Positions 2,827 to 8,715 of a stretch of DNA of 64,000 nt are shown piece by piece. Where the stretch lies: assembly GCF_041886205.1 (NCBI RefSeq), contig NZ_CP169029.1; one strand, given 5' to 3'. This DNA is from Escherichia coli (lineage in GTDB: Bacteria; Pseudomonadota; Gammaproteobacteria; Enterobacterales; Enterobacteriaceae). Within the stretch, counting starts at the first letter, position 1. Each line of letters begins with the position of its first letter. Position numbers and translations under genes: made by a program. Under the pieces are notes generated by a model. That model was given only the letters and a program-made list of their open reading frames with translations, did no database searches and had not been told where the DNA came from.

Positions 2827-3519
2827 ATGAAAAAGATTAATGCAATAATTTTATTATCTTCTCTGACCTCTGCCTCGGTATTTGCTGGCGCATACGTCGA
2901 AAACAGGGAGGCATATAATCTTGCCTCCGATCAGGGCGAGGTTATGCTACGTGTGGGTTATAACTTCGATATGGGCGCGGGTATTATGTTAACCAATACC
3001 TACAACTTTCAGCGAGAAGATGAACTAAAACATGGATATAACGAAATTGAAGGCTGGTATCCGTTATTTAAACCAACCGATAAATTAACCATCCAGCCCG
3101 GTGGCTTAATTAATGATAAGAGTATCGGTTCGGGTGGTGCAGTGTATCTGGACGTCAACTATAAATTTGTACCATGGTTTAATCTGACAGTACGAAATCG
3201 CTATAACCATAATAACTATAGTTCAACAGATTTGAGCGGGGAACTGGATAATAATGACACCTATGAAATTGGCACCTACTGGAATTTTAAAATCACCGAT
3301 AAATTTTCCTATACATTTGAGCCACATTACTTCATGCGAGTGAATGACTTTAATAGTAGCAACGGGAAAGATCATCATTGGGAAATCACTAACACCTTCC
3401 GTTACCGTATTAATGAACACTGGCTCCCTTATTTCGAATTGCGCTGGTTAGACCGCAACGTCGAACCGTACCACCGCGAGCAAAACCAGATCCGTATCGG
3501 GACGAAGTATTTCTTCTGA
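2827..3519 (+). CDS. ompL: outer-membrane porin OmpL
   Basis: 230-aa product from MKKINAIILLSS with a signal-peptide-like N-terminus and C-terminal aromatic residue (..KYFF); ORF track starts 12 codons upstream. Confidence 0.85.
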   Translation: MKKINAIILLSSLTSASVFAGAYVENREAYNLASDQGEVMLRVGYNFDMGAGIMLTNTYNFQREDELKHGYNEIEGWYPLFKPTDKLTIQPGGLINDKSIGSGGAVYLDVNYKFVPWFNLTVRNRYNHNNYSSTDLSGELDNNDTYEIGTYWNFKITDKFSYTFEPHYFMRVNDFNSSNGKDHHWEITNTFRYRINEHWLPYFELRWLDRNVEPYHREQNQIRIGTKYFF

Positions 3520-3528
3520 TGTGAAACT

Positions 3529-3606
<78 letters not shown>

Positions 3607-3609
3607 TAA

Positions 3610-4875
3610 TTAAGCTTCAGCCGCCAGCATCTCTTTCTTACGTTGGCTAATACGCTTAACCAGCATTACGGAAACCACCGCACCACTGAATGCGAAGCAG
3701 GCCATAATGCCAAACACGATTTTGTAGCCAATAATCCCCGGATTTAAATCCAGAATGTAGCCATACAGACTGAAGCAGAACATCGCCGGAGCGTAACCAA
3801 TAAAGCTACCCAACGCCATCGCCGCACCTGTTTTATTTTCAGCAATTTTTGCTTCGCCGATAGGTGCAAAAAATACGGCTCGCTGTGTAAAGACTATCGC
3901 GCCAAAGCCCAGCGTACATGCCATCCCTAAATAGACCGGCATACTTTCGTGCGGCAGCATAATCAACAGTACGAGCGCAGCGGTACTAATGATAAAGGTG
4001 TAGCATAGATATTTACTTGGCGATTTCAGGATCTTATCTGAAATCATGCCACCAATCGGTCCACCAATCATTTTCAGACAGTATTGGTTAATGATGCCGT
4101 AAGCCCCCACCAGCGCAACGGGCAATAGATAGATGTTTTTCAGGAATGGAATGAAGAATGTCAGGCCACAGTAAACCGCGTAAACGAAGAAGACGTTAAA
4201 AGCGATAAGCCAGATAGTTTTGTCTTTCAGCACCGAGGTCATACTGGTGTTTTTCGATGCTCCGTCTTCTTTTTTCACCTCAACGGACGGTGCCTCTTCT
4301 TTGTCATTCAGAACAAAGAAAATGATAATGCCTACGGCAATCACAATAAGGGAATAGAACCAGATGCCTGCTTTAAAACCCAATAAGCCACTGCCAAACC
4401 AGGTAAATACTGCCAACGCAGAAAATGCCACCACGGTATCGACAATGCCACGCCCTGTTTCGAAGAAGCCAAACAACCGACCTTGTTGTTCGCTATTGCC
4501 CAATCGACTTACCGACTTGAGCAAGACCGGCCAGTTCATCATGTCGCAAGTAACGCCAAATAGCGCCCAGACAAAGAGGATGCCCCAATACCCCGGCATT
4601 GTCGTCAAATAAACACCCAGTAATCCTGTCGCAATGAGTGAGAATGACATGGTGTATCTGCGCGGTAGTTTATCGGCAAAATAAATAGACAGAAAAAAAC
4701 CCACTGTCGTGACAAATGAGTTTACCGACATAGCATTACCAATTTGACCATTGGTCAAATGGAAATATTCCTGCATCGGGATATAAAACGCATCTTTCAG
4801 CGACGGTAATTTATAAATTGTACCGCCACACAATGTTAATAGACTAAATAACGCCCATTTCTTTTTCGTGAGCAT
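3610..4875 (-). CDS. yihN: MFS transporter, uncharacterised substrate
   Basis: 421-aa hydrophobic multi-span ORF; conserved position after yihM. Confidence 0.85.
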   Translation of the reverse strand: MLTKKKWALFSLLTLCGGTIYKLPSLKDAFYIPMQEYFHLTNGQIGNAMSVNSFVTTVGFFLSIYFADKLPRRYTMSFSLIATGLLGVYLTTMPGYWGILFVWALFGVTCDMMNWPVLLKSVSRLGNSEQQGRLFGFFETGRGIVDTVVAFSALAVFTWFGSGLLGFKAGIWFYSLIVIAVGIIIFFVLNDKEEAPSVEVKKEDGASKNTSMTSVLKDKTIWLIAFNVFFVYAVYCGLTFFIPFLKNIYLLPVALVGAYGIINQYCLKMIGGPIGGMISDKILKSPSKYLCYTFIISTAALVLLIMLPHESMPVYLGMACTLGFGAIVFTQRAVFFAPIGEAKIAENKTGAAMALGSFIGYAPAMFCFSLYGYILDLNPGIIGYKIVFGIMACFAFSGAVVSVMLVKRISQRKKEMLAAEA

Positions 4876-4976
4876 AACATCCCCTAAGCGATTTTTAAAA
4901 TCACTGTTTTATAGGCAATAAGATACCGACCATTCATATGGAATGGTTTTATTAACTGCGTATGAGTTAAAACTTA

Positions 4977-5957
4977 TTAGTGGTTCAGAAGATGGTTTGC
5001 CTCTTGTTTGATTTGTTGTAGTACGTTACGCACATGATTTATCTGATTAATTGCATCTTCTTTTTCTTTACGTAACCGCGCATCCAGTAAATGATTTTCT
5101 GGCAATGGTGTTTCACTCATCTGGCGATAAGGGATCCACGGATTATCATCTTCGTCTTCAAAGCGGAACGCCGGCGCATAGTAATCAACCTCTTCTTCCA
5201 GGCCATATGCCGTCACCTGCGGCTCATCATCACCCAGGCAGATAAGGTGCGTTAATAACGCTTTGAACGGCATATCACCCTGACCTGAAATACAGGCTTT
5301 ATGACCCAGGCCACCCTGTTCTTTAACGATCAAGGCATCTTTGATATGGACCTGGGTAATATGCGGTGCCATCGTTTTTAAGGCGTCGATGGGATGCTCA
5401 TTTGCATTGATCATGTTCGCAAAATCAAACAGTAAGGAAAGAGACTCCATCTCACTTTCTTTGACCAGCGACACCAGCTCATGACTTTTTAAATCTTCAT
5501 GCTGCTCGATCGTAAAAGTCAGGCCGCTGTCCTGATACGTTTCCCGTACATAGGCAATGTCGTTAGCGATAATCGATAATACGTCGCGCAAATTACCTTC
5601 ATAACGTGGATAAAAACGTACGGACGATGCCCCAGTTTTCAACGCAATGGCGACGGCTTCGTCAATAGATGCCTTATCTGAGGCGCTGGTTTCAATATGA
5701 ATATCAAGGTTCAGACGGCGGGCTTTATCTCCAAAGGCAGAGAGTTCTTTATCGTCCATATTACCAAGAGAAAAACGCTCGCCATCCAGAACATGGATTT
5801 TGACGCCACGTAGATTATTTTCACTTGCGATATCAAGTAAATCAGCAGGCAACACTCTTTCCAGCCGCATATTTAAATGAAAGGCATAAGCATGTAAATA
5901 AAGAGGAAGAGTGTCGACACGTTGTAGAATCTTTCTTGCGTTATTTATTGTCACCAT
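4977..5957 (-). CDS. yihM: sugar-phosphate isomerase/epimerase-like (xylose-isomerase TIM-barrel fold) protein
   Basis: 326-aa ORF recognised as YihM; operon position between yihL and yihN. Confidence 0.8.
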   Translation of the reverse strand: MVTINNARKILQRVDTLPLYLHAYAFHLNMRLERVLPADLLDIASENNLRGVKIHVLDGERFSLGNMDDKELSAFGDKARRLNLDIHIETSASDKASIDEAVAIALKTGASSVRFYPRYEGNLRDVLSIIANDIAYVRETYQDSGLTFTIEQHEDLKSHELVSLVKESEMESLSLLFDFANMINANEHPIDALKTMAPHITQVHIKDALIVKEQGGLGHKACISGQGDMPFKALLTHLICLGDDEPQVTAYGLEEEVDYYAPAFRFEDEDDNPWIPYRQMSETPLPENHLLDARLRKEKEDAINQINHVRNVLQQIKQEANHLLNH

Positions 5958-5964
5958 AAAACAC

Positions 5965-6675
5965 CTACAGATTAATGATGAGGTCTACGGCCTCAAATCG
6001 CCAATATTCAATATCTATCTGGACAATATTGCCTTGCTGGTCGGCGCGATGCTTTTCAATTAAGATCGCTGGCATACCCGCAGAACCGCCAAGATACTTG
6101 CTGATATCGCCCGGCATTCTGACGGGTTTGAAAATCAATTTTTTTACTACCGTCTCTTTTTGGTAGCACTTTTCCCAGACTGCAGAAAATGAGTGGTTTT
6201 CAAGTTGTTCAATAAAACCCGGAGCAACTTCAGGATTAATATATGTTTCGTGATAGAAAACTTTATGTCCTTCCAGCGCCCCCCAGCCGGTGATGCGATA
6301 GAGTTCAGTTGATGGTGTCACTGCAATCAGTGGCGCGAGCGTCTCGGGAATATCGCTGGTACGGTTTTTCTCGGTAAACCCCCAGGAAGGCTCTCGTCCT
6401 TGCTCAATTGCGGCCCGCTGAAAGCTCGCTGACAGCTCCGGACTGTAATTAAATCGCGGCTGGGTCACGAACCACCCCTTACGATCCTTACGGAAGATTT
6501 TGGATTCTGCCTCAAGGTTCAACAACGCCTGGCGCAGCGTCATACGTTTAATGCCCAGCAGTTCTCCCAGCTCTCTTTCTGAAGGGAGTTTTCCACCCGG
6601 CGTGGTGATGCCATCTTTCAACCACCGATCCAGTTTCTCTTTTGCATTTTCTACGGTGGATTGATTCTCCGCCAT
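5965..6675 (-). CDS. yihL: GntR-family transcriptional regulator (HTH + UTRA-type effector domain)
   Basis: 236-aa ORF with N-terminal GntR-like HTH (..SERELGELLGIKRMTLRQAL..); 8 bp upstream of yihM. Confidence 0.8.
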   Translation of the reverse strand: MAENQSTVENAKEKLDRWLKDGITTPGGKLPSERELGELLGIKRMTLRQALLNLEAESKIFRKDRKGWFVTQPRFNYSPELSASFQRAAIEQGREPSWGFTEKNRTSDIPETLAPLIAVTPSTELYRITGWGALEGHKVFYHETYINPEVAPGFIEQLENHSFSAVWEKCYQKETVVKKLIFKPVRMPGDISKYLGGSAGMPAILIEKHRADQQGNIVQIDIEYWRFEAVDLIINL

Positions 6676-6841
6676 TGTTTAATCCTTTTGGTTTAAACCA
6701 GATGAAGCATCTTACGCTTACGCCAAAAAAGAAAGCAATTAACGGCGTATGACTTTGCAGATAATTGTGACAAAGCTCTCTATTGACGTAATCCCAGACT
6801 TATAAGGGAGATACTCGCATTGGTGTGCGCTCACGACAGGT

Positions 6842-6874
6842 AAAAAAAAACCTGCCAGCGATGGCAGGTTTTTT
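6842..6874 (-). terminator. rho-independent terminator downstream of typA (hairpin CCTGCCAGCGATGGCAGG flanked by A/T runs)
   Basis: perfect inverted repeat 6851..6868 followed by a U-run on the minus-strand transcript. Confidence 0.6.
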
Positions 6875-6891
6875 ATAACTAAAAAACGAAA

Positions 6892-8715
6892 TTAATCGTC
6901 TTTCGGTGCGCGGTTGGCGCGACGACGATCGTTTTCAGTCAGGTGACGTTTACGAATACGGATAGAGGTCGGAGTCACTTCTACCAGTTCGTCATCATCG
7001 ATGAACTCCAGAGCTTGTTCCAGAGTCATGCGGATAGGCGGAACCAGAACAACGGCTTCGTCAGTACCGGAAGCACGCATGTTGGTCAGTTTCTTACCAG
7101 TCAGGCAGTTTACCGTCAGGTCGTTAGAGCGGCTGTGAATACCGATAATCTGACCTTCGTAAACTTCTGCACCGTGACCGAGGAACAGCTTACCGCGATC
7201 CTGCAGACCGAACAGCGCGAACGCGACCGCTTTACCCTGACCGTTAGAGATCAGTACGCCGTTCTGACGCTGACCCACTTCACCCGGACGTACGTCGTCG
7301 TAGTGGCTGAAGGTGGAGTACAGCAGACCAGTACCGGAAGTCATGGTCATGAACTCAGAACGGAAGCCAATCAGACCACGGCTTGGGATCACGTAGTCGA
7401 GACGTACGCGGCCTTTACCGTCTGGATTCATGTTTTTCAGGTCGCCTTTACGTTCGCCCAGCGCCTGCATTACAGAACCCTGATGCTGTTCTTCAACGTC
7501 CAGAGTCACGTTTTCATACGGCTCTTGTTTACGACCGTCGATTTCACGGAAGATAACTTTCGGACGGGATACCGCCAGTTCGAAACCTTCACGACGCATG
7601 TTTTCGATCAGAACAGACAGGTGTAGTTCGCCACGACCAGAAACGCGGAACGCATCAGCGTCTTCGGTTTCTTCTACGCGCAGCGCAACGTTGTGTACCA
7701 GTTCTTTGTTCAGACGATCCAGGATCTGACGAGACGTTACGAACTTACCTTCTTTACCGCAGAACGGCGAGGTGTTAACGCAGAAGAACATAGAAACGGT
7801 CGGCTCATCAACGGAGAGTGCCGGCAGCGCTTCAACGTTTTGCGTGTCGCAAACGGTGTCAGAAATGTTCAGTTCGCCCAGGCCCGTGATCGCCACGATA
7901 TCGCCAGCTTCCGCCAGATCGGTTTCGATACGTTCCAGACCGAGGTGGCCCAGCACTTTACCGACTTTCGCGTTACGGGTTTTGCCTTCGCTATCGATGA
8001 TAGTGACCTGCTGGTTCGGCTTCACTTTACCGCGCTTGATGCGGCCAATGCCGATAACGCCAACATAGCTGTTGTAATCGAGCTGAGAAATCTGCATCTG
8101 GAACGGACCGTCAAGGTCAACGTCCGGCGCAGGAACGTGATCAACAATCGCCTGATACAGCGGGGTCATGTCTTCCGCCATATCTTCGTGGTCCAGACCC
8201 GCGATACCGTTCAGCGCAGAAGCGTAAACGATCGGGAAGTCCAGCTGCTCGTCGGTCGCGTCGAGGTTAACGAACAGATCGAATACCTGATCCACAACCC
8301 AATCAGGACGCGCGCCAGGGCGGTCAACTTTGTTGATAACAACAATCGGCTTCAGGCCGTAAGCAAACGCTTTTTTGGTTACGAAGCGCGTTTGCGGCAT
8401 CGGGCCGTCAAATGCGTCAACCACCAGCAGCACTGAGTCTACCATGGACATTACACGTTCAACTTCACCACCGAAGTCGGCGTGCCCCGGGGTATCAACG
8501 ATGTTGATACGGTAATCATTCCATTTGATAGCGGTGTTTTTCGCGAGGATGGTAATCCCACGCTCTTTCTCCAAATCGTTGGAGTCCATCACGCGCTCTT
8601 GGGTTTCGGCACGAGAGTCGAACGTACCGGATTGTTGGAGCAGCTTGTCTACCAGGGTGGTTTTACCATGGTCTACGTGCGCGATGATGGCGATATTACG
8701 CAATTTTTCGATCAC
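6892..8715 (-). CDS. typA: ribosome-associated translational GTPase BipA/TypA
   Basis: 607-aa ORF with GTPase motifs ([18 protein letters not shown]); divergent from glnA. Confidence 0.95.

What the first reader, a model, noticed from the sequence alone, without database searches (positions are those of the whole stretch)
3610..6675. yihL-yihM-yihN: uncharacterised regulator + isomerase/epimerase-like enzyme + MFS transporter module
Three co-directional genes with 7-bp and about 100-bp spacers encode a GntR-family regulator, a xylose-isomerase-like TIM-barrel protein and an MFS transporter, the classic layout of a small carbohydrate or sugar-acid uptake and conversion module. It sits next to, but is transcribed opposite to, the sulfoquinovose cluster (yihO/yihP/ompL). 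To my knowledge its substrate and effector are not established. typA has its own strong terminator (6842..6874), so yihLMN probably has its own promoter in 6676..6840.
Basis: partly seen in the sequence, partly recalled or inferred. Interest (0 to 1): 0.4.

Follow-up and report, generated by a model that had tools for sequence, protein, structure and literature searches.

The report
Orphan yihLMN catabolic cassette of E. coli
The three genes are real and still have no known substrate. They form a self-contained, self-repressed uptake-and-conversion cassette found in many bacteria, and its partner genes elsewhere point to a small nitrogen- and phosphorus-containing compound rather than an ordinary sugar.

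Summary
The window is E. coli, and yihL (5965-6675), yihM (4977-5957) and yihN (3610-4875) lie on the minus strand with 7-nt and 101-nt spacers, downstream of a strong typA terminator.

No paper or 2026 annotation assigns a substrate.

New here:
- The L-M-N trio keeps its order in about 57 loci from more than 20 genera, in at least 15 chromosomal contexts. It is a mobile unit, not part of the sulfoquinovose cluster.
- A perfect palindrome, TGGTTTAAACCA (6689-6700), sits just upstream of yihL in 49 of 57 loci, with single-base variants in 7 more. It falls under the published YihL ChIP-exo peak (signal/noise 60), so it is the YihL operator.
- Around it are conserved -35 and -10 elements and a CRP-like site.
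- YihM is a confident xylose-isomerase-fold metalloenzyme of an uncharacterised subfamily.
- Partner genes elsewhere are RidA, MocR-type regulators, a HisN-like phosphatase, phosphate transporters and phosphodiesterase-family enzymes. YihL's nearest relative is PhnR.

These partners suggest an amine-bearing organophosph(on)ate substrate. That is inference only.

About 20% of E. coli genomes carry a different six-gene cassette in this slot.

Interest is moderate.

The parts
3610..4875 (-). yihN: 421-aa MFS transporter, the predicted importer of the cassette's anionic substrate
   Evidence: ORF; MFS_1 at 94 bits. The best curated family is the organophosphate/PgtP subfamily, at 72 bits against a cut-off of 408. 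It is found next to a YihM homologue in 64-65 loci. The GlpT R45/R269 pair is not conserved.
4929..4947 (-). Intercistronic hairpin ACCATTC-catat-GAATGGT in the yihM-yihN spacer. A second hairpin lies just upstream of the yihN Shine-Dalgarno sequence.
   Evidence: Fold of 4876-4976: -21.1 kcal/mol, z = -2.5. The hairpin is kept with changes on both stem sides in Citrobacter, Pseudocitrobacter and Yokenella. Its function is unknown; it may be an attenuator or a processing site.
4977..5957 (-). yihM: 326-aa metal-dependent xylose-isomerase-fold TIM barrel of an uncharacterised subfamily, with a conserved C-terminal extension
5965..6675 (-). yihL: 236-aa GntR/HutC-type repressor (winged helix plus UTRA domain)
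   Evidence: Pfam GntR at 70 bits and UTRA at 78 bits. The nearest curated family is PhnR, at 183 bits against a cut-off of 297, with the next family at 51 bits. PhnR proteins are 33-34% identical and are the nearest non-orthologues in a 5.8-billion-protein search. A published ChIP-exo peak lies at its own promoter.
6689..6700 (.). YihL operator: the perfect palindrome TGGTTTAAACCA, 14-25 nt upstream of the yihL ATG
   Evidence: It is exact in 49 of 57 loci that have a YihL-type gene, a one-base variant in 7 and absent in 1. It occurs once per roughly 17-kb locus and always at this position. It is the only exact copy in the 64-kb window. It lies within the ChIP-exo peak, NC_000913.2 positions 4058436-4058459, signal/noise 60.46. 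Two to four tandem copies occur in Marinobacterium, Oceanospirillaceae and Rhodobacterales loci.
6709..6714 (-). Putative -10 hexamer TAAGAT of the yihL promoter
   Evidence: A TAnnnT element lies 8-12 nt upstream of the operator in diverged loci. A genomic SELEX study with RpoD holoenzyme places a promoter in the typA>yihL spacer. The hexamer is below the threshold of the simple consensus scan.
6733..6738 (-). Putative -35 hexamer TTGCTT, with an 18-nt spacer to the -10
   Evidence: A TTGnnn element is conserved in position across Enterobacterales, Neisseriaceae, Acinetobacter and Photobacterium loci.
6766..6781 (-). CRP-like site AGAGA-gctttg-TCACA, centred about 71 nt upstream of the inferred transcription start (class I position)
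   Evidence: In 22 representative loci, a TCACA-like right half (TCACA, CCACA, GCACA or ACACA) lies 69-77 nt (one at 62) upstream of the operator in 19. Of these, 15 also have a left half beginning TG (TGnGA or TGnTA). The left half is degenerate in E. coli. No published CRP data were found.
6842..6874 (-). typA intrinsic terminator, the upstream boundary of the cassette
   Evidence: Fold of -18.7 kcal/mol, z = -5.0, followed by U9. Homology in E. coli genomes that lack yihLMN stops at window position 6842.
3520..3609 (.). Pair of REP-type hairpins between the convergent yihN and ompL genes, the downstream boundary
   Evidence: Fold of -38.4 kcal/mol, z = -4.75. A query that includes them has a median of 21 matching places per E. 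coli genome, against 1 when they are excluded.

Best explanation
yihLMN is a self-contained, horizontally mobile, substrate-inducible catabolic cassette.

Regulation (shown or strongly supported). YihL, a HutC-type GntR repressor, binds the palindrome TGGTTTAAACCA. The site lies just downstream of the -10 of its own sigma-70 promoter, at about +4 to +15. Binding there shuts off yihL-yihM, and probably yihN. A class-I CRP-like site suggests catabolite control.

Function (inferred from partner genes in other bacteria). The inducer and substrate is a small anionic compound that carries an amino group and most likely a phosphate or phosphonate group.
- YihN imports it.
- YihM carries out the single committed step. 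It is a divalent-metal enzyme of the xylose-isomerase fold, with a metal site of E151, D178, H204 and E254, and extra invariant residues H153, E154, E160, N181, R114 and R265. The step would be an isomerisation or beta-elimination next to a carbonyl that yields an enamine or imine.
- That intermediate is hydrolysed to a keto product plus ammonia by RidA. RidA is a housekeeping protein in E. coli and is encoded inside the cluster in Photobacterium, Proteus and Clostridia.
- Where present, a HisN-like phosphatase and phosphate transporters deal with the phosphate.
For: Unit and selection:
- The L-M-N order is conserved in about 57 loci from more than 20 genera, in at least 15 different neighbourhoods.
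- The L-M junction is always tight.
- dN/dS is about 0.02-0.06.

Operator:
- The palindrome is exact in 49 of 57 loci and a single-base variant in 7.
- It is the only exact copy in the window.
- It falls under the ChIP-exo peak with signal/noise 60.46. The other two YihL peaks are at about 5 (mapping).
- The sister regulator PhnR has look-alike sites, TGGTCTATACCA and TGGTATAGGCCA, at its promoters.

Promoter:
- RpoD SELEX places a promoter there.
- -35, -10 and CRP-like elements are conserved in position.

Enzyme:
- The model is high-confidence and matches the fold.
- The metal ligands are invariant or nearly so.

Amine evidence:
- A RidA-family gene (TIGR00004, 166 bits against a cut-off of 106) lies inside the cluster in Photobacterium and Proteus. 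It also accompanies the YihN-like/AP_endonuc_2 clusters of two Clostridia.
- MocR-type regulators replace YihL in 17 loci.
- An arginase-family gene is translationally coupled to M in a Rhodobacteraceae MAG (L077), and a HutF-like amidohydrolase lies immediately upstream of M in another alphaproteobacterial MAG (L071).

Phosphate evidence:
- An IMPase-family gene closest to HisN (255 bits, cut-off 275) overlaps the stop codon of M in Rhizobiales. It also sits in the operator-controlled ABC operon of Marinobacterium.
- Na/Pi-PhoU and PhoU_div genes are adjacent.
- YihN homologues at 56% identity sit beside PF01663 phosphodiesterase-family enzymes in Romboutsia and Desulfoluna.
- The binding protein of the associated ABC transporter is weakly PhnS-like.
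- YihL's nearest relative is the 2-aminoethylphosphonate regulator PhnR.
Against: - No experiment links any compound to the cassette.
- The enteric cassettes encode no phosphatase, kinase or dehydrogenase. The substrate must therefore already be reactive, and its product must enter known metabolism in a single step.
- YihN lacks the two arginines that bind phosphate in GlpT and UhpT.
- PhnR-likeness is not specific to phosphonates. The fructose-asparagine regulator FraR (STM3602) is reported to be 45% identical to PhnR (PMC5351497).
- Many of the partner-gene observations come from related Rhizobiales, so they amount to only about three independent lineages per association.
- The CRP left half-site is poor in E. 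coli, and no CRP binding data were found.
- The fold's known chemistry needs a carbonyl, which simple amino-phosphates such as phosphoethanolamine lack.
Confidence: 0.5

Rival explanations
1. This is the first reader's view: an ordinary carbohydrate module. YihN would import a rare keto-sugar, sugar acid or sugar phosphate. YihM would epimerise or isomerise it into a common sugar, and YihL would sense the sugar.
For: The best structural neighbours are sugar isomerases and ketose 3-epimerases, namely Art22, D-tagatose and D-allulose 3-epimerases and IolI. The E-D-H-E metal site is canonical. The CRP-like site is typical of sugar operons. One 45%-identical homologue lies next to a shikimate-dehydrogenase-like gene and near inositol-catabolism-type genes.
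Against: This view does not explain the recurrent RidA, MocR-type, arginase-family, HisN-like phosphatase and phosphate-transporter partners. It also does not explain YihL's closest kinship to PhnR. No curated sugar-enzyme family comes near its cut-off; the best score is 17 bits.
Confidence: 0.22
2. Amadori or Heyns (glycated amine) deglycation. YihN would import a fructosamine-type conjugate as a carboxylate anion. YihM would isomerise the ketosamine to the aldosyl-imine. RidA or water would then hydrolyse that to an aldose plus a free amine. No phosphate is involved.
For: The reaction suits an aldose-ketose isomerase fold and explains RidA. HutC-type regulators control the frl and fra loci, and FraR is reported to be 45% identical to PhnR. 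From my own knowledge, FrlC is a member of this fold. SBP_bac_5 binding proteins, which include opine binders, sit in the operator-controlled Marinobacterium operon.
Against: It does not explain the IMPase-type phosphatase fused in register to M, the phosphate transporters or the phosphodiesterase-family partners. No kinase or deglycase genes like those of the known pathways are present.
Confidence: 0.13
3. Phosphodiester head-group scavenging. YihN would import a glycerophosphodiester-like compound. YihM would be a metal-dependent phosphodiesterase. The amino-alcohol phosphate released would be dephosphorylated and oxidised elsewhere.
For: Partners in Alpha- and Gammaproteobacteria include a HisN-like phosphatase, a GMC oxidoreductase that passes the choline dehydrogenase equivalog cut-off (749 against 732), a betaine-aldehyde-dehydrogenase-like ALDH and phosphate transporters. 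YihN homologues sit beside phosphodiesterase-family enzymes. Endonuclease IV shares the fold.
Against: YihM lacks the histidine ligands of the trinuclear endonuclease IV site: position 181 is Asn, and there is no His pair on strands 2 and 3. RidA is left unexplained. The idea that YihN belongs to the family of the Mycoplasma glycerophosphocholine permease GlpU rests on my memory only and could not be checked.
Confidence: 0.1
4. The module is an accessory part of the neighbouring sulfoquinovose (yih) pathway, for example handling a sulfonate by-product.
For: It is physically adjacent to ompL, yihO and yihP in Escherichia and some Citrobacter.
Against: The trio occurs in at least 15 other contexts without sulfoquinovose genes. 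In about 1075 of 5426 E. coli genomes it is replaced by another cassette while ompL, yihO and yihP remain. It has its own repressor and operator, and phosphate-specific rather than sulfur-specific partners.
Confidence: 0.03

Closest known systems
PhnR with phnSTUV and phnWX, the 2-aminoethylphosphonate system of Salmonella and Enterobacteriaceae
   Same: YihL's nearest non-orthologous relatives are PhnR proteins: 33-34% identity over 95% of the length, and 183 bits on TIGR03337. Both are HutC-type regulators encoded next to a transporter and a catabolic enzyme. The putative PhnR sites TGGTCTATACCA and TGGTATAGGCCA share the TGGT-N4-ACCA frame of the YihL operator. ABC transporters next to YihM homologues have a weakly PhnS-like binding protein.
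   Different: YihL scores below the PhnR equivalog cut-off (183 against 297). There is no PhnW transaminase and no PhnX phosphonatase. The transporter is an MFS protein, not an ABC system, and the enzyme is a TIM-barrel metalloenzyme.
FrlR with frlABCD and FraR with fraBDAE, the Amadori-compound loci
   Same: These are HutC-type repressors controlling uptake and conversion of an amine-bearing keto-sugar. From my own knowledge, FrlC is a xylose-isomerase-fold epimerase. FraR is reported to be 45% identical to PhnR.
   Different: yihLMN has no kinase and no SIS-type deglycase. The transporters belong to other families. The phosphate-related partners of YihM homologues have no counterpart in these loci.
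NagR (YvoA) and DasR with their dre-type operators
   Same: They share the GntR+UTRA architecture and are the best solved-structure matches to YihL, at E = 5e-13. From my own knowledge, they recognise palindromic operators of the TGGT...ACCA type.
   Different: They have different effectors (GlcNAc-6-P and GlcN-6-P) and larger regulons. By ChIP-exo, YihL appears to be essentially a single-target regulator.
Ketose 3-epimerases, IolI and IolE, and the isomerase Art22 (xylose isomerase-like TIM barrels)
   Different: Identity is only 12-20%. YihM has extra invariant residues (H153, E154, E160, R114, R265) and a conserved extension of about 70 residues (residues 255-326) ending in a long helix. 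The family is small: 47 clusters at E <= 1e-30 among 1.84 billion representative proteins.
AepP, the MFS 2-aminoethylphosphonate permease of Pseudomonas putida (PMC8316502)
   Same: It is an MFS importer of an amino-phosphonate used as a nitrogen source, with export of the excess phosphate. That physiology would explain the phosphate transporters seen next to YihM homologues.
   Different: AepP is reported to keep GlpT's phosphate-binding residues, whereas YihN does not. I could not compare the two sequences directly.

Membership tests
GntR family, HutC subfamily (YihL) | N-terminal winged-helix GntR domain | tested here: met
   PF00392 at 70.2 bits (cut-off 27), residues 8-70
GntR family, HutC subfamily (YihL) | C-terminal UTRA effector domain | tested here: met
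   PF07702 at 77.9 bits (cut-off 23.8), residues 91-230
GntR family, HutC subfamily (YihL) | Binds a palindromic operator at a target promoter | tested here: met
   The palindrome is conserved in 56 of 57 loci and lies under the published ChIP-exo peak. No in-vitro binding to the 12-mer itself has been shown.
GntR family, HutC subfamily (YihL) | Released from DNA by a small-molecule effector | not testable with these tools
   Needs EMSA or thermal-shift assays with candidate ligands.
PhnR equivalog (TIGR03337) | Score at or above the curated cut-off | tested here: not met
   183.4 bits against a cut-off of 296.75
PhnR equivalog (TIGR03337) | Encoded beside phnSTUV and phnWX | tested here: not met
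   The neighbours are yihM and yihN. The true PhnR locus has an aminotransferase, a HAD hydrolase and an ABC transporter.
Xylose isomerase-like TIM barrel (YihM) | Pfam AP_endonuc_2 above the gathering score | tested here: met
   36.2 bits against 31.1
Xylose isomerase-like TIM barrel (YihM) | (beta/alpha)8 fold matching solved members | tested here: met
Xylose isomerase-like TIM barrel (YihM) | Glu-Asp-His-Glu metal ligands at the ends of the barrel strands | tested here: met
   E151, D178 and H204 are invariant; E254 is conserved in 24 of 28 sequences and is Gln in the rest. The assignment is by alignment and model. Metal binding was not measured.
Characterised subfamilies of that fold (UlaE/SgbU, IolE, Hyi, ketose 3-epimerase) | Curated equivalog score | tested here: not met
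   The best NCBIfam hits are 17 bits against cut-offs of 200-290.
Endonuclease IV-type phosphodiesterases | Trinuclear zinc site with histidine ligands (His69, His109, His182, His231 in E. coli Nfo; numbering from my own knowledge) | tested here: not met
   The position after D178-x-x is an invariant Asn181. There is no conserved His on strands 2 and 3: position 54 is variable and position 91 is Ser.
Major facilitator superfamily (YihN) | MFS_1 profile across the protein | tested here: met
   94.2 bits, residues 33-364
Organophosphate:phosphate antiporter family (GlpT, UhpT, PgtP) | Curated subfamily score, and the TM1 and TM7 arginines that bind phosphate | tested here: not met
   TIGR00881 at 72.5 bits against 407.75. 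In the alignment with GlpT, UhpT and UhpC, GlpT R45 and R269 align to non-basic residues, and identity is 18-21%.
Sulfoquinovose (sulfo-EMP) gene cluster | Co-occurrence with yihO-yihV across genomes | tested here: not met
   The trio is found in at least 15 contexts without those genes. The sulfoquinovose genes are retained where the trio is replaced.

The most novel reading that the evidence does not exclude
The YihM family is a new cofactor-independent (non-PLP), metal-dependent deaminating isomerase or lyase that acts on an amino-organophosph(on)ate. Candidates are a phosphorylated amino-keto compound or an aminophosphonate derivative. Together with YihN and housekeeping RidA, it would form a previously unrecognised one-enzyme route that releases ammonia, and indirectly phosphate, from such compounds in gut, soil and marine bacteria.
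Probability: 0.2. Interest if true: 0.7.

Novelty: new member of a known kind. Interest (0 to 1): 0.45.

Why it matters
yihL, yihM and yihN are among the remaining function-unknown genes of E. coli K-12. This work turns 'unknown module' into a concrete, testable model:
- a defined operator and promoter architecture;
- a single-target autorepressor that can serve as a ligand-screening tool;
- a narrowed substrate class (amine-bearing organophosph(on)ate anions), which can be screened with nitrogen- and phosphorus-source phenotype arrays in a delta-yihL background.

If the substrate class is right, the cassette would add a new enzyme chemistry to organic nitrogen and phosphorus mineralisation. 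It would also show why the slot between ompL and typA alternates between two accessory cassettes in E. coli. If it turns out to be a rare-sugar module, it is an ordinary deorphanisation.

Tried and rejected
- The consensus promoter and terminator scan found no promoter in 6676-6840 and missed the typA terminator. I replaced it with folding and cross-genus footprinting.
- Sequence searches of solved structures gave only remote hits for YihM (E = 4e-6) and none for YihN.
- A literature search for the top structural match, Art22, returned nothing relevant, so its reaction could not be used.
- Searches by gene name and b-number found no functional assignment. yihL appears in one paper only as a linked kanamycin marker.
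- The reduced dye uptake of a delta-yihN strain is broad and unspecific.
- My recollection that YihN is classed with the Mycoplasma glycerophosphocholine permease GlpU could not be verified, so it is not used as evidence.
- The hypothesis that YihN is an organophosphate antiporter was tested and not met.
- The IS1-mediated deletion seen in strain TUM9812 was tested as the general cause of absence and rejected. Only one genome has that junction; the common cause is replacement by another cassette.
- The contexts of several distant YihM homologues were too short or uninformative.
- dS is saturated in most comparisons, so only the qualitative conclusion dN/dS << 1 is used.
- A first greedy ORF caller failed on high-GC loci. 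It was redone with a codon-position GC filter.


Full report

Yes. The window is Escherichia coli. Positions 3400-7000 are 100% identical to strain 6EVA, where RefSeq annotates ompL, yihN, yihM, yihL and typA in this order.

The three ORFs are at exactly the stated coordinates on the minus strand. Their spacers are 7 nt (5958-5964) and 101 nt (4876-4976). Pfam confirms GntR+UTRA for YihL, AP_endonuc_2 for YihM and MFS_1 for YihN.

It has a 13-bp stem including an A/U extension, followed by U9. The fold is -18.7 kcal/mol, z = -5.0, and none of 200 shuffles folded as well. The simple scan missed it and found no promoter.

All three genes are under strong purifying selection relative to Citrobacter, Yokenella and Raoultella (dN/dS about 0.02-0.06, with dS saturated). 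This is therefore not a decaying remnant.

**2. What is known?**

Full-text searches by gene name and b-number found no biochemical or genetic assignment.
- YihL is listed among E. coli transcription factors of unknown function (PMC9308461; PMC4797297).
- YihN is called a transporter of unknown substrate. Its knockout lowers uptake of many dyes unspecifically (PMC8131027).

Two published data sets do bear on regulation.
- A genomic SELEX study with RpoD holoenzyme lists a constitutive promoter between typA and yihL, with target 'yihLM' (PMC3946193).
- A ChIP-exo survey of 40 candidate regulators found three YihL peaks in MG1655. One dominates: NC_000913.2 positions 4058436-4058459, signal/noise 60.46, nearest gene yihL. 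The other two have signal/noise about 5 (PMC8464067, supplement 5). The reads were mapped on version .2 of the genome. The paper gives no motif, effector or function for YihL.

**3. The cassette is a conserved, mobile unit.**

A scan of one genome per species with a YihM family alignment returned 80 loci. I called ORFs and clustered the neighbours. The three largest clusters were YihM (76 loci), YihN-like MFS proteins (65) and YihL-like regulators (57).

The order L-M-N is kept in Escherichia, Citrobacter, Pseudocitrobacter, Pluralibacter, Yokenella, Raoultella, Serratia, Buttiauxella, Budvicia, Pragia, Morganella, Edwardsiella, Shimwellia, Silvania, Aeromonas, Photobacterium, Acinetobacter, Uruburuella and a Neisseriaceae MAG. 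The flanking genes differ between these groups.

The L-M junction is always tight, from -4 to +17 nt. The M-N spacer varies from 21 to 233 nt.

Adjacency to ompL, yihO and yihP is limited to Escherichia and some Citrobacter. Some Citrobacter and Buttiauxella genomes carry two or three diverged copies of the cassette.

**4. Operator and promoter.**

Fourteen to 25 nt upstream of the yihL ATG lies the perfect palindrome TGGTTTAAACCA (window 6689-6700).

Among the 57 loci with a YihL-type gene:
- the exact 12-mer is at the equivalent position in 49;
- the variant TGGTTTATACCA is there in 6, all from one diverged paralogue group;
- AGGTTTAAACCA is there in 1;
- nothing similar is there in 1.

The exact 12-mer occurs once per roughly 17-kb locus and only once in the 64-kb window. 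The flanking sequence is diverged beyond recognition between genera.

In K-12 the palindrome is at NC_000913.3 positions 4060422-4060433, and the yihL ATG is at 4060447. The two genome versions differ in length by 1,977 bp. The .3 length comes; the .2 length is from my own knowledge. With any plausible offset (1,973-1,978), the ChIP-exo peak overlaps the palindrome. I therefore take TGGTTTAAACCA as the YihL operator.

Anchoring diverged loci on the palindrome also reveals other elements:
- a TTGnnn element (window 6733-6738, TTGCTT);
- a TAnnnT element (6709-6714, TAAGAT), with an 18-nt spacer in E. coli, 8-12 nt upstream of the operator;
- a CRP-like site. In 22 representative loci, a TCACA-like right half lies 69-77 nt (one at 62) upstream of the operator in 19, and 15 of these also have a left half beginning TG.

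In E. coli the CRP-like site reads AGAGA-gctttg-TCACA (6766-6781), so its left half is weak. The inferred start near 6702-6703 puts the operator at about +4 to +15 and the CRP-like centre at about -71. These positions are classic for a repressor that blocks initiation and for a class-I activator. The CRP part is inference only; I found no published CRP data.

Two to four tandem copies of the operator lie between divergent operons in Marinobacterium, an Oceanospirillaceae MAG and a Rhodobacterales MAG. This extends the predicted regulon there to an ABC transporter operon.

**5. The proteins.**

*YihL.* Its best curated family is PhnR, the 2-aminoethylphosphonate regulator. The score is 183 bits, below the cut-off of 297, but the next family scores only 51 bits. 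In a 5.8-billion-protein search, everything more similar than 45% is an orthologue from an LMN cassette. The next group is PhnR, at 33-34% identity.

At the Salmonella phnR locus I found TGGTCTATACCA between phnW and phnR, and TGGTATAGGCCA upstream of phnS. These have the same TGGT-N4-ACCA frame as the YihL operator. I identified them by inspection; they are not established sites.

One caution applies. A paper reports that FraR (STM3602), the regulator at the fructose-asparagine locus, is 45% identical to PhnR (PMC5351497). This clade of regulators is therefore not restricted to phosphonates.

*YihM.*
- The family is small: 47 clusters at E <= 1e-30, many of them fragments, among 1.84 billion representative proteins.
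- An AlphaFold model built on a 28-sequence alignment has mean pLDDT 95.9.
- The canonical metal ligands are present: E151, D178 and H204 are invariant, and E254 is Glu in 24 of 28 sequences.
- Further invariant residues are H153, E154, E160, N181, S91, R114, R265, S281 and E298.
- A conserved C-terminal extension ends in a long helix.
- It lacks the histidine set of endonuclease IV.
- No curated enzyme subfamily scores above 17 bits.

*YihN.* It is an MFS protein whose best, but very weak, curated match is the organophosphate/PgtP subfamily. In an alignment with GlpT, UhpT and UhpC, the two phosphate-binding arginines are not conserved. It is therefore not a member of that family.

**6. What the neighbours say about the substrate.**

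Outside the enteric L-M-N form, YihM and YihN homologues keep recurring with a limited set of partners.

(a) RidA. True Rid-family proteins (TIGR00004, 166 bits against a cut-off of 106) lie:
- between M and N in Photobacterium;
- upstream of N-M in Proteus, with a YheO-type regulator;
- next to AP_endonuc_2 genes in Crassaminicella and Clostridium aciditolerans, in clusters that also hold a YihN homologue of 56-58% identity. The two Crassaminicella AP_endonuc_2 proteins are 23-25% identical to YihM.

(b) MocR-type regulators (GntR plus an aminotransferase-like domain) replace YihL in 17 loci. These include M-N pairs in Paracoccus and Pseudomonas.

(c) An IMPase-family phosphatase closest to histidinol-phosphatase HisN (255 bits, cut-off 275) overlaps the stop codon of M in Rhizobiales and a Rhodobacterales MAG. 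It also sits in the operator-controlled ABC operon of Marinobacterium.

(d) Phosphate transport genes are adjacent: a Na/Pi cotransporter with PhoU domains in Pseudogulbenkiania and Ensifer, and a PhoU_div protein in Marinobacterium.

(e) PF01663 phosphodiesterase-family enzymes lie immediately downstream of YihN homologues in Romboutsia and Desulfoluna.

(f) Other partners:
- a weakly PhnS-like binding protein of an ABC transporter;
- a GMC oxidoreductase that passes the choline dehydrogenase cut-off;
- a betaine-aldehyde-dehydrogenase-like ALDH;
- an NCS1 permease;
- an arginase-family gene, translationally coupled to M in a Rhodobacteraceae MAG (L077);
- a HutF-like amidohydrolase immediately upstream of M in another alphaproteobacterial MAG (L071).

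Each association is seen in roughly three or four independent lineages. The many Rhizobiales loci count as one.

Taken together, these partners indicate that the pathway handles an amine and produces an enamine or imine (RidA, MocR). They also indicate that it involves a phosphate ester or a phosphonate-like group, with inorganic phosphate released (IMPase, phosphate transporters, PF01663). This matches the physiology described for 2-aminoethylphosphonate used as a nitrogen source, where excess phosphate is exported (PMC8316502). The exact compound cannot be named from these data.

**7. Most likely mechanism.**

*Shown or strongly supported.* YihL binds the palindrome at its own promoter, and the cassette is a single conserved unit with its own sigma-70 promoter.

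*Inferred.*
- Repression occurs by occlusion of the promoter.
- CRP activates transcription.
- The substrate or its product induces the cassette.
- YihN takes up an anionic, amine-bearing organophosph(on)ate.
- YihM catalyses a metal-dependent isomerisation or beta-elimination.
- RidA hydrolyses the resulting enamine or imine.

*Weak points.*
- The enteric cassette has no phosphatase, kinase or dehydrogenase.
- The fold's known chemistry needs a carbonyl next to the reacting carbon.
- YihN lacks the known phosphate-binding signature.

The rivals, in order of plausibility, are a plain rare-sugar or sugar-acid module, Amadori-type deglycation, phosphodiester head-group scavenging, and an accessory role in sulfoquinovose catabolism.

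**8. Population genetics in E. coli.**

Of 5,426 complete genomes, 4,421 carry yihLMN. In about 1,075 genomes, homology to the window stops at about position 6842-6845 in the four genomes sampled, immediately after the typA terminator.

In one such genome examined (strain 2021CK-00607), the slot between ompL and typA holds a different six-gene cassette:
- STM4015-family and STM4014-family proteins;
- an STM4013/SEN3800-family hydrolase;
- two radical SAM proteins;
- a Cof-type HAD hydrolase.

The sulfoquinovose genes remain in place. The slot therefore alternates between two accessory cassettes.

Rarer events also occur. One is an IS1-mediated deletion from within yihL to yihR in a single genome. 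Another is an ISEc31 insertion in yihM.

**9. Verdict.**

The finding is a correct description of a genuine orphan module, and its interpretation is partly right.

The regulatory half can now be described in detail. It agrees with published but un-interpreted ChIP-exo and SELEX data. The metabolic half is narrowed to a class of substrates but remains unsolved.

This is a new member of a familiar kind of system, a repressor-controlled uptake-plus-enzyme operon. It is built around an uncharacterised enzyme subfamily. Interest is moderate.

Noticed in passing
window 3520-6841 (slot between ompL and the typA terminator); L098 3423-8957: In about 1075 of 5426 complete E. coli genomes, homology ends at about window 6842-6845 in the four genomes sampled. 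In one such genome examined (strain 2021CK-00607) the slot holds a six-gene cassette instead of yihLMN: STM4015 and STM4014 family proteins, an STM4013/SEN3800 hydrolase, two radical SAM proteins and a Cof-type HAD hydrolase. The STM4013 family model also weakly hit the phosphodiesterase-family enzyme that sits next to a YihN homologue in Romboutsia.
   Followed up: partly
L006 6151-7324 (E. coli TUM9812): An IS1 element joins a 5' remnant of yihL to a remnant of yihR. This deletes yihM, yihN and the whole sulfoquinovose cluster. The junction is found in only one genome.
   Followed up: yes
window 3520-3609: Two REP-type hairpins lie between the convergent yihN and ompL genes. They explain why a query that includes them matches a median of 21 places per E. 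coli genome.
   Followed up: partly
window 4876-4976: The yihM-yihN spacer folds into a 7-bp hairpin (4929-4947) and a second hairpin that abuts the yihN Shine-Dalgarno sequence. The first is kept with changes on both stem sides in Citrobacter, Pseudocitrobacter and Yokenella. It might set the yihLM to yihN expression ratio; the cited RpoD SELEX table lists only 'yihLM' as a unit.
   Followed up: partly
L051, L055, L056, L057, L059, L060 (Citrobacter, Buttiauxella, Entomohabitans): A diverged paralogous L-M-N cassette (about 60% identity) carries the operator variant TGGTTTATACCA. It can coexist with the E. coli-type cassette in one genome, for example Citrobacter sp. R56 (L014 and L051). This suggests insulated regulators with different ligands.
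   Followed up: partly
L066 7125-7209; L079 7128-7212; L069 7140-7197; L087 635-671: Two to four tandem copies of the YihL operator, 19-27 bp apart start to start, lie between a divergent SBP_bac_5 ABC operon and the yihL/yihM homologues in marine Gamma- and Alphaproteobacteria. The ABC operon includes an IMPase-family phosphatase and a PhoU_div gene.
   Followed up: partly
L101 5870-5890 and 6868-6885 (Salmonella phnR locus): Candidate PhnR operators TGGTCTATACCA (between phnW and phnR) and TGGTATAGGCCA (upstream of phnS) share the frame of the YihL operator. I found them by inspection only.
   Followed up: no
window 6858-6861 versus L095 2062-2065 (K-12): The 4-nt loop of the typA terminator is TCGC in this window and GCGA in K-12, its reverse complement. 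The stem is identical. This looks like an inversion of the hairpin loop.
   Followed up: no
hit H19, E. coli ST69 strain (NZ_CP102488.1): An IS3-family ISEc31 element is inserted within the yihM region in this genome.
   Followed up: no
whole-genome (published data, MG1655): The two minor YihL ChIP-exo peaks, near yqcC and yifB (signal/noise about 5), lie outside the window. I could not check them for operator-like sequences.
   Followed up: no
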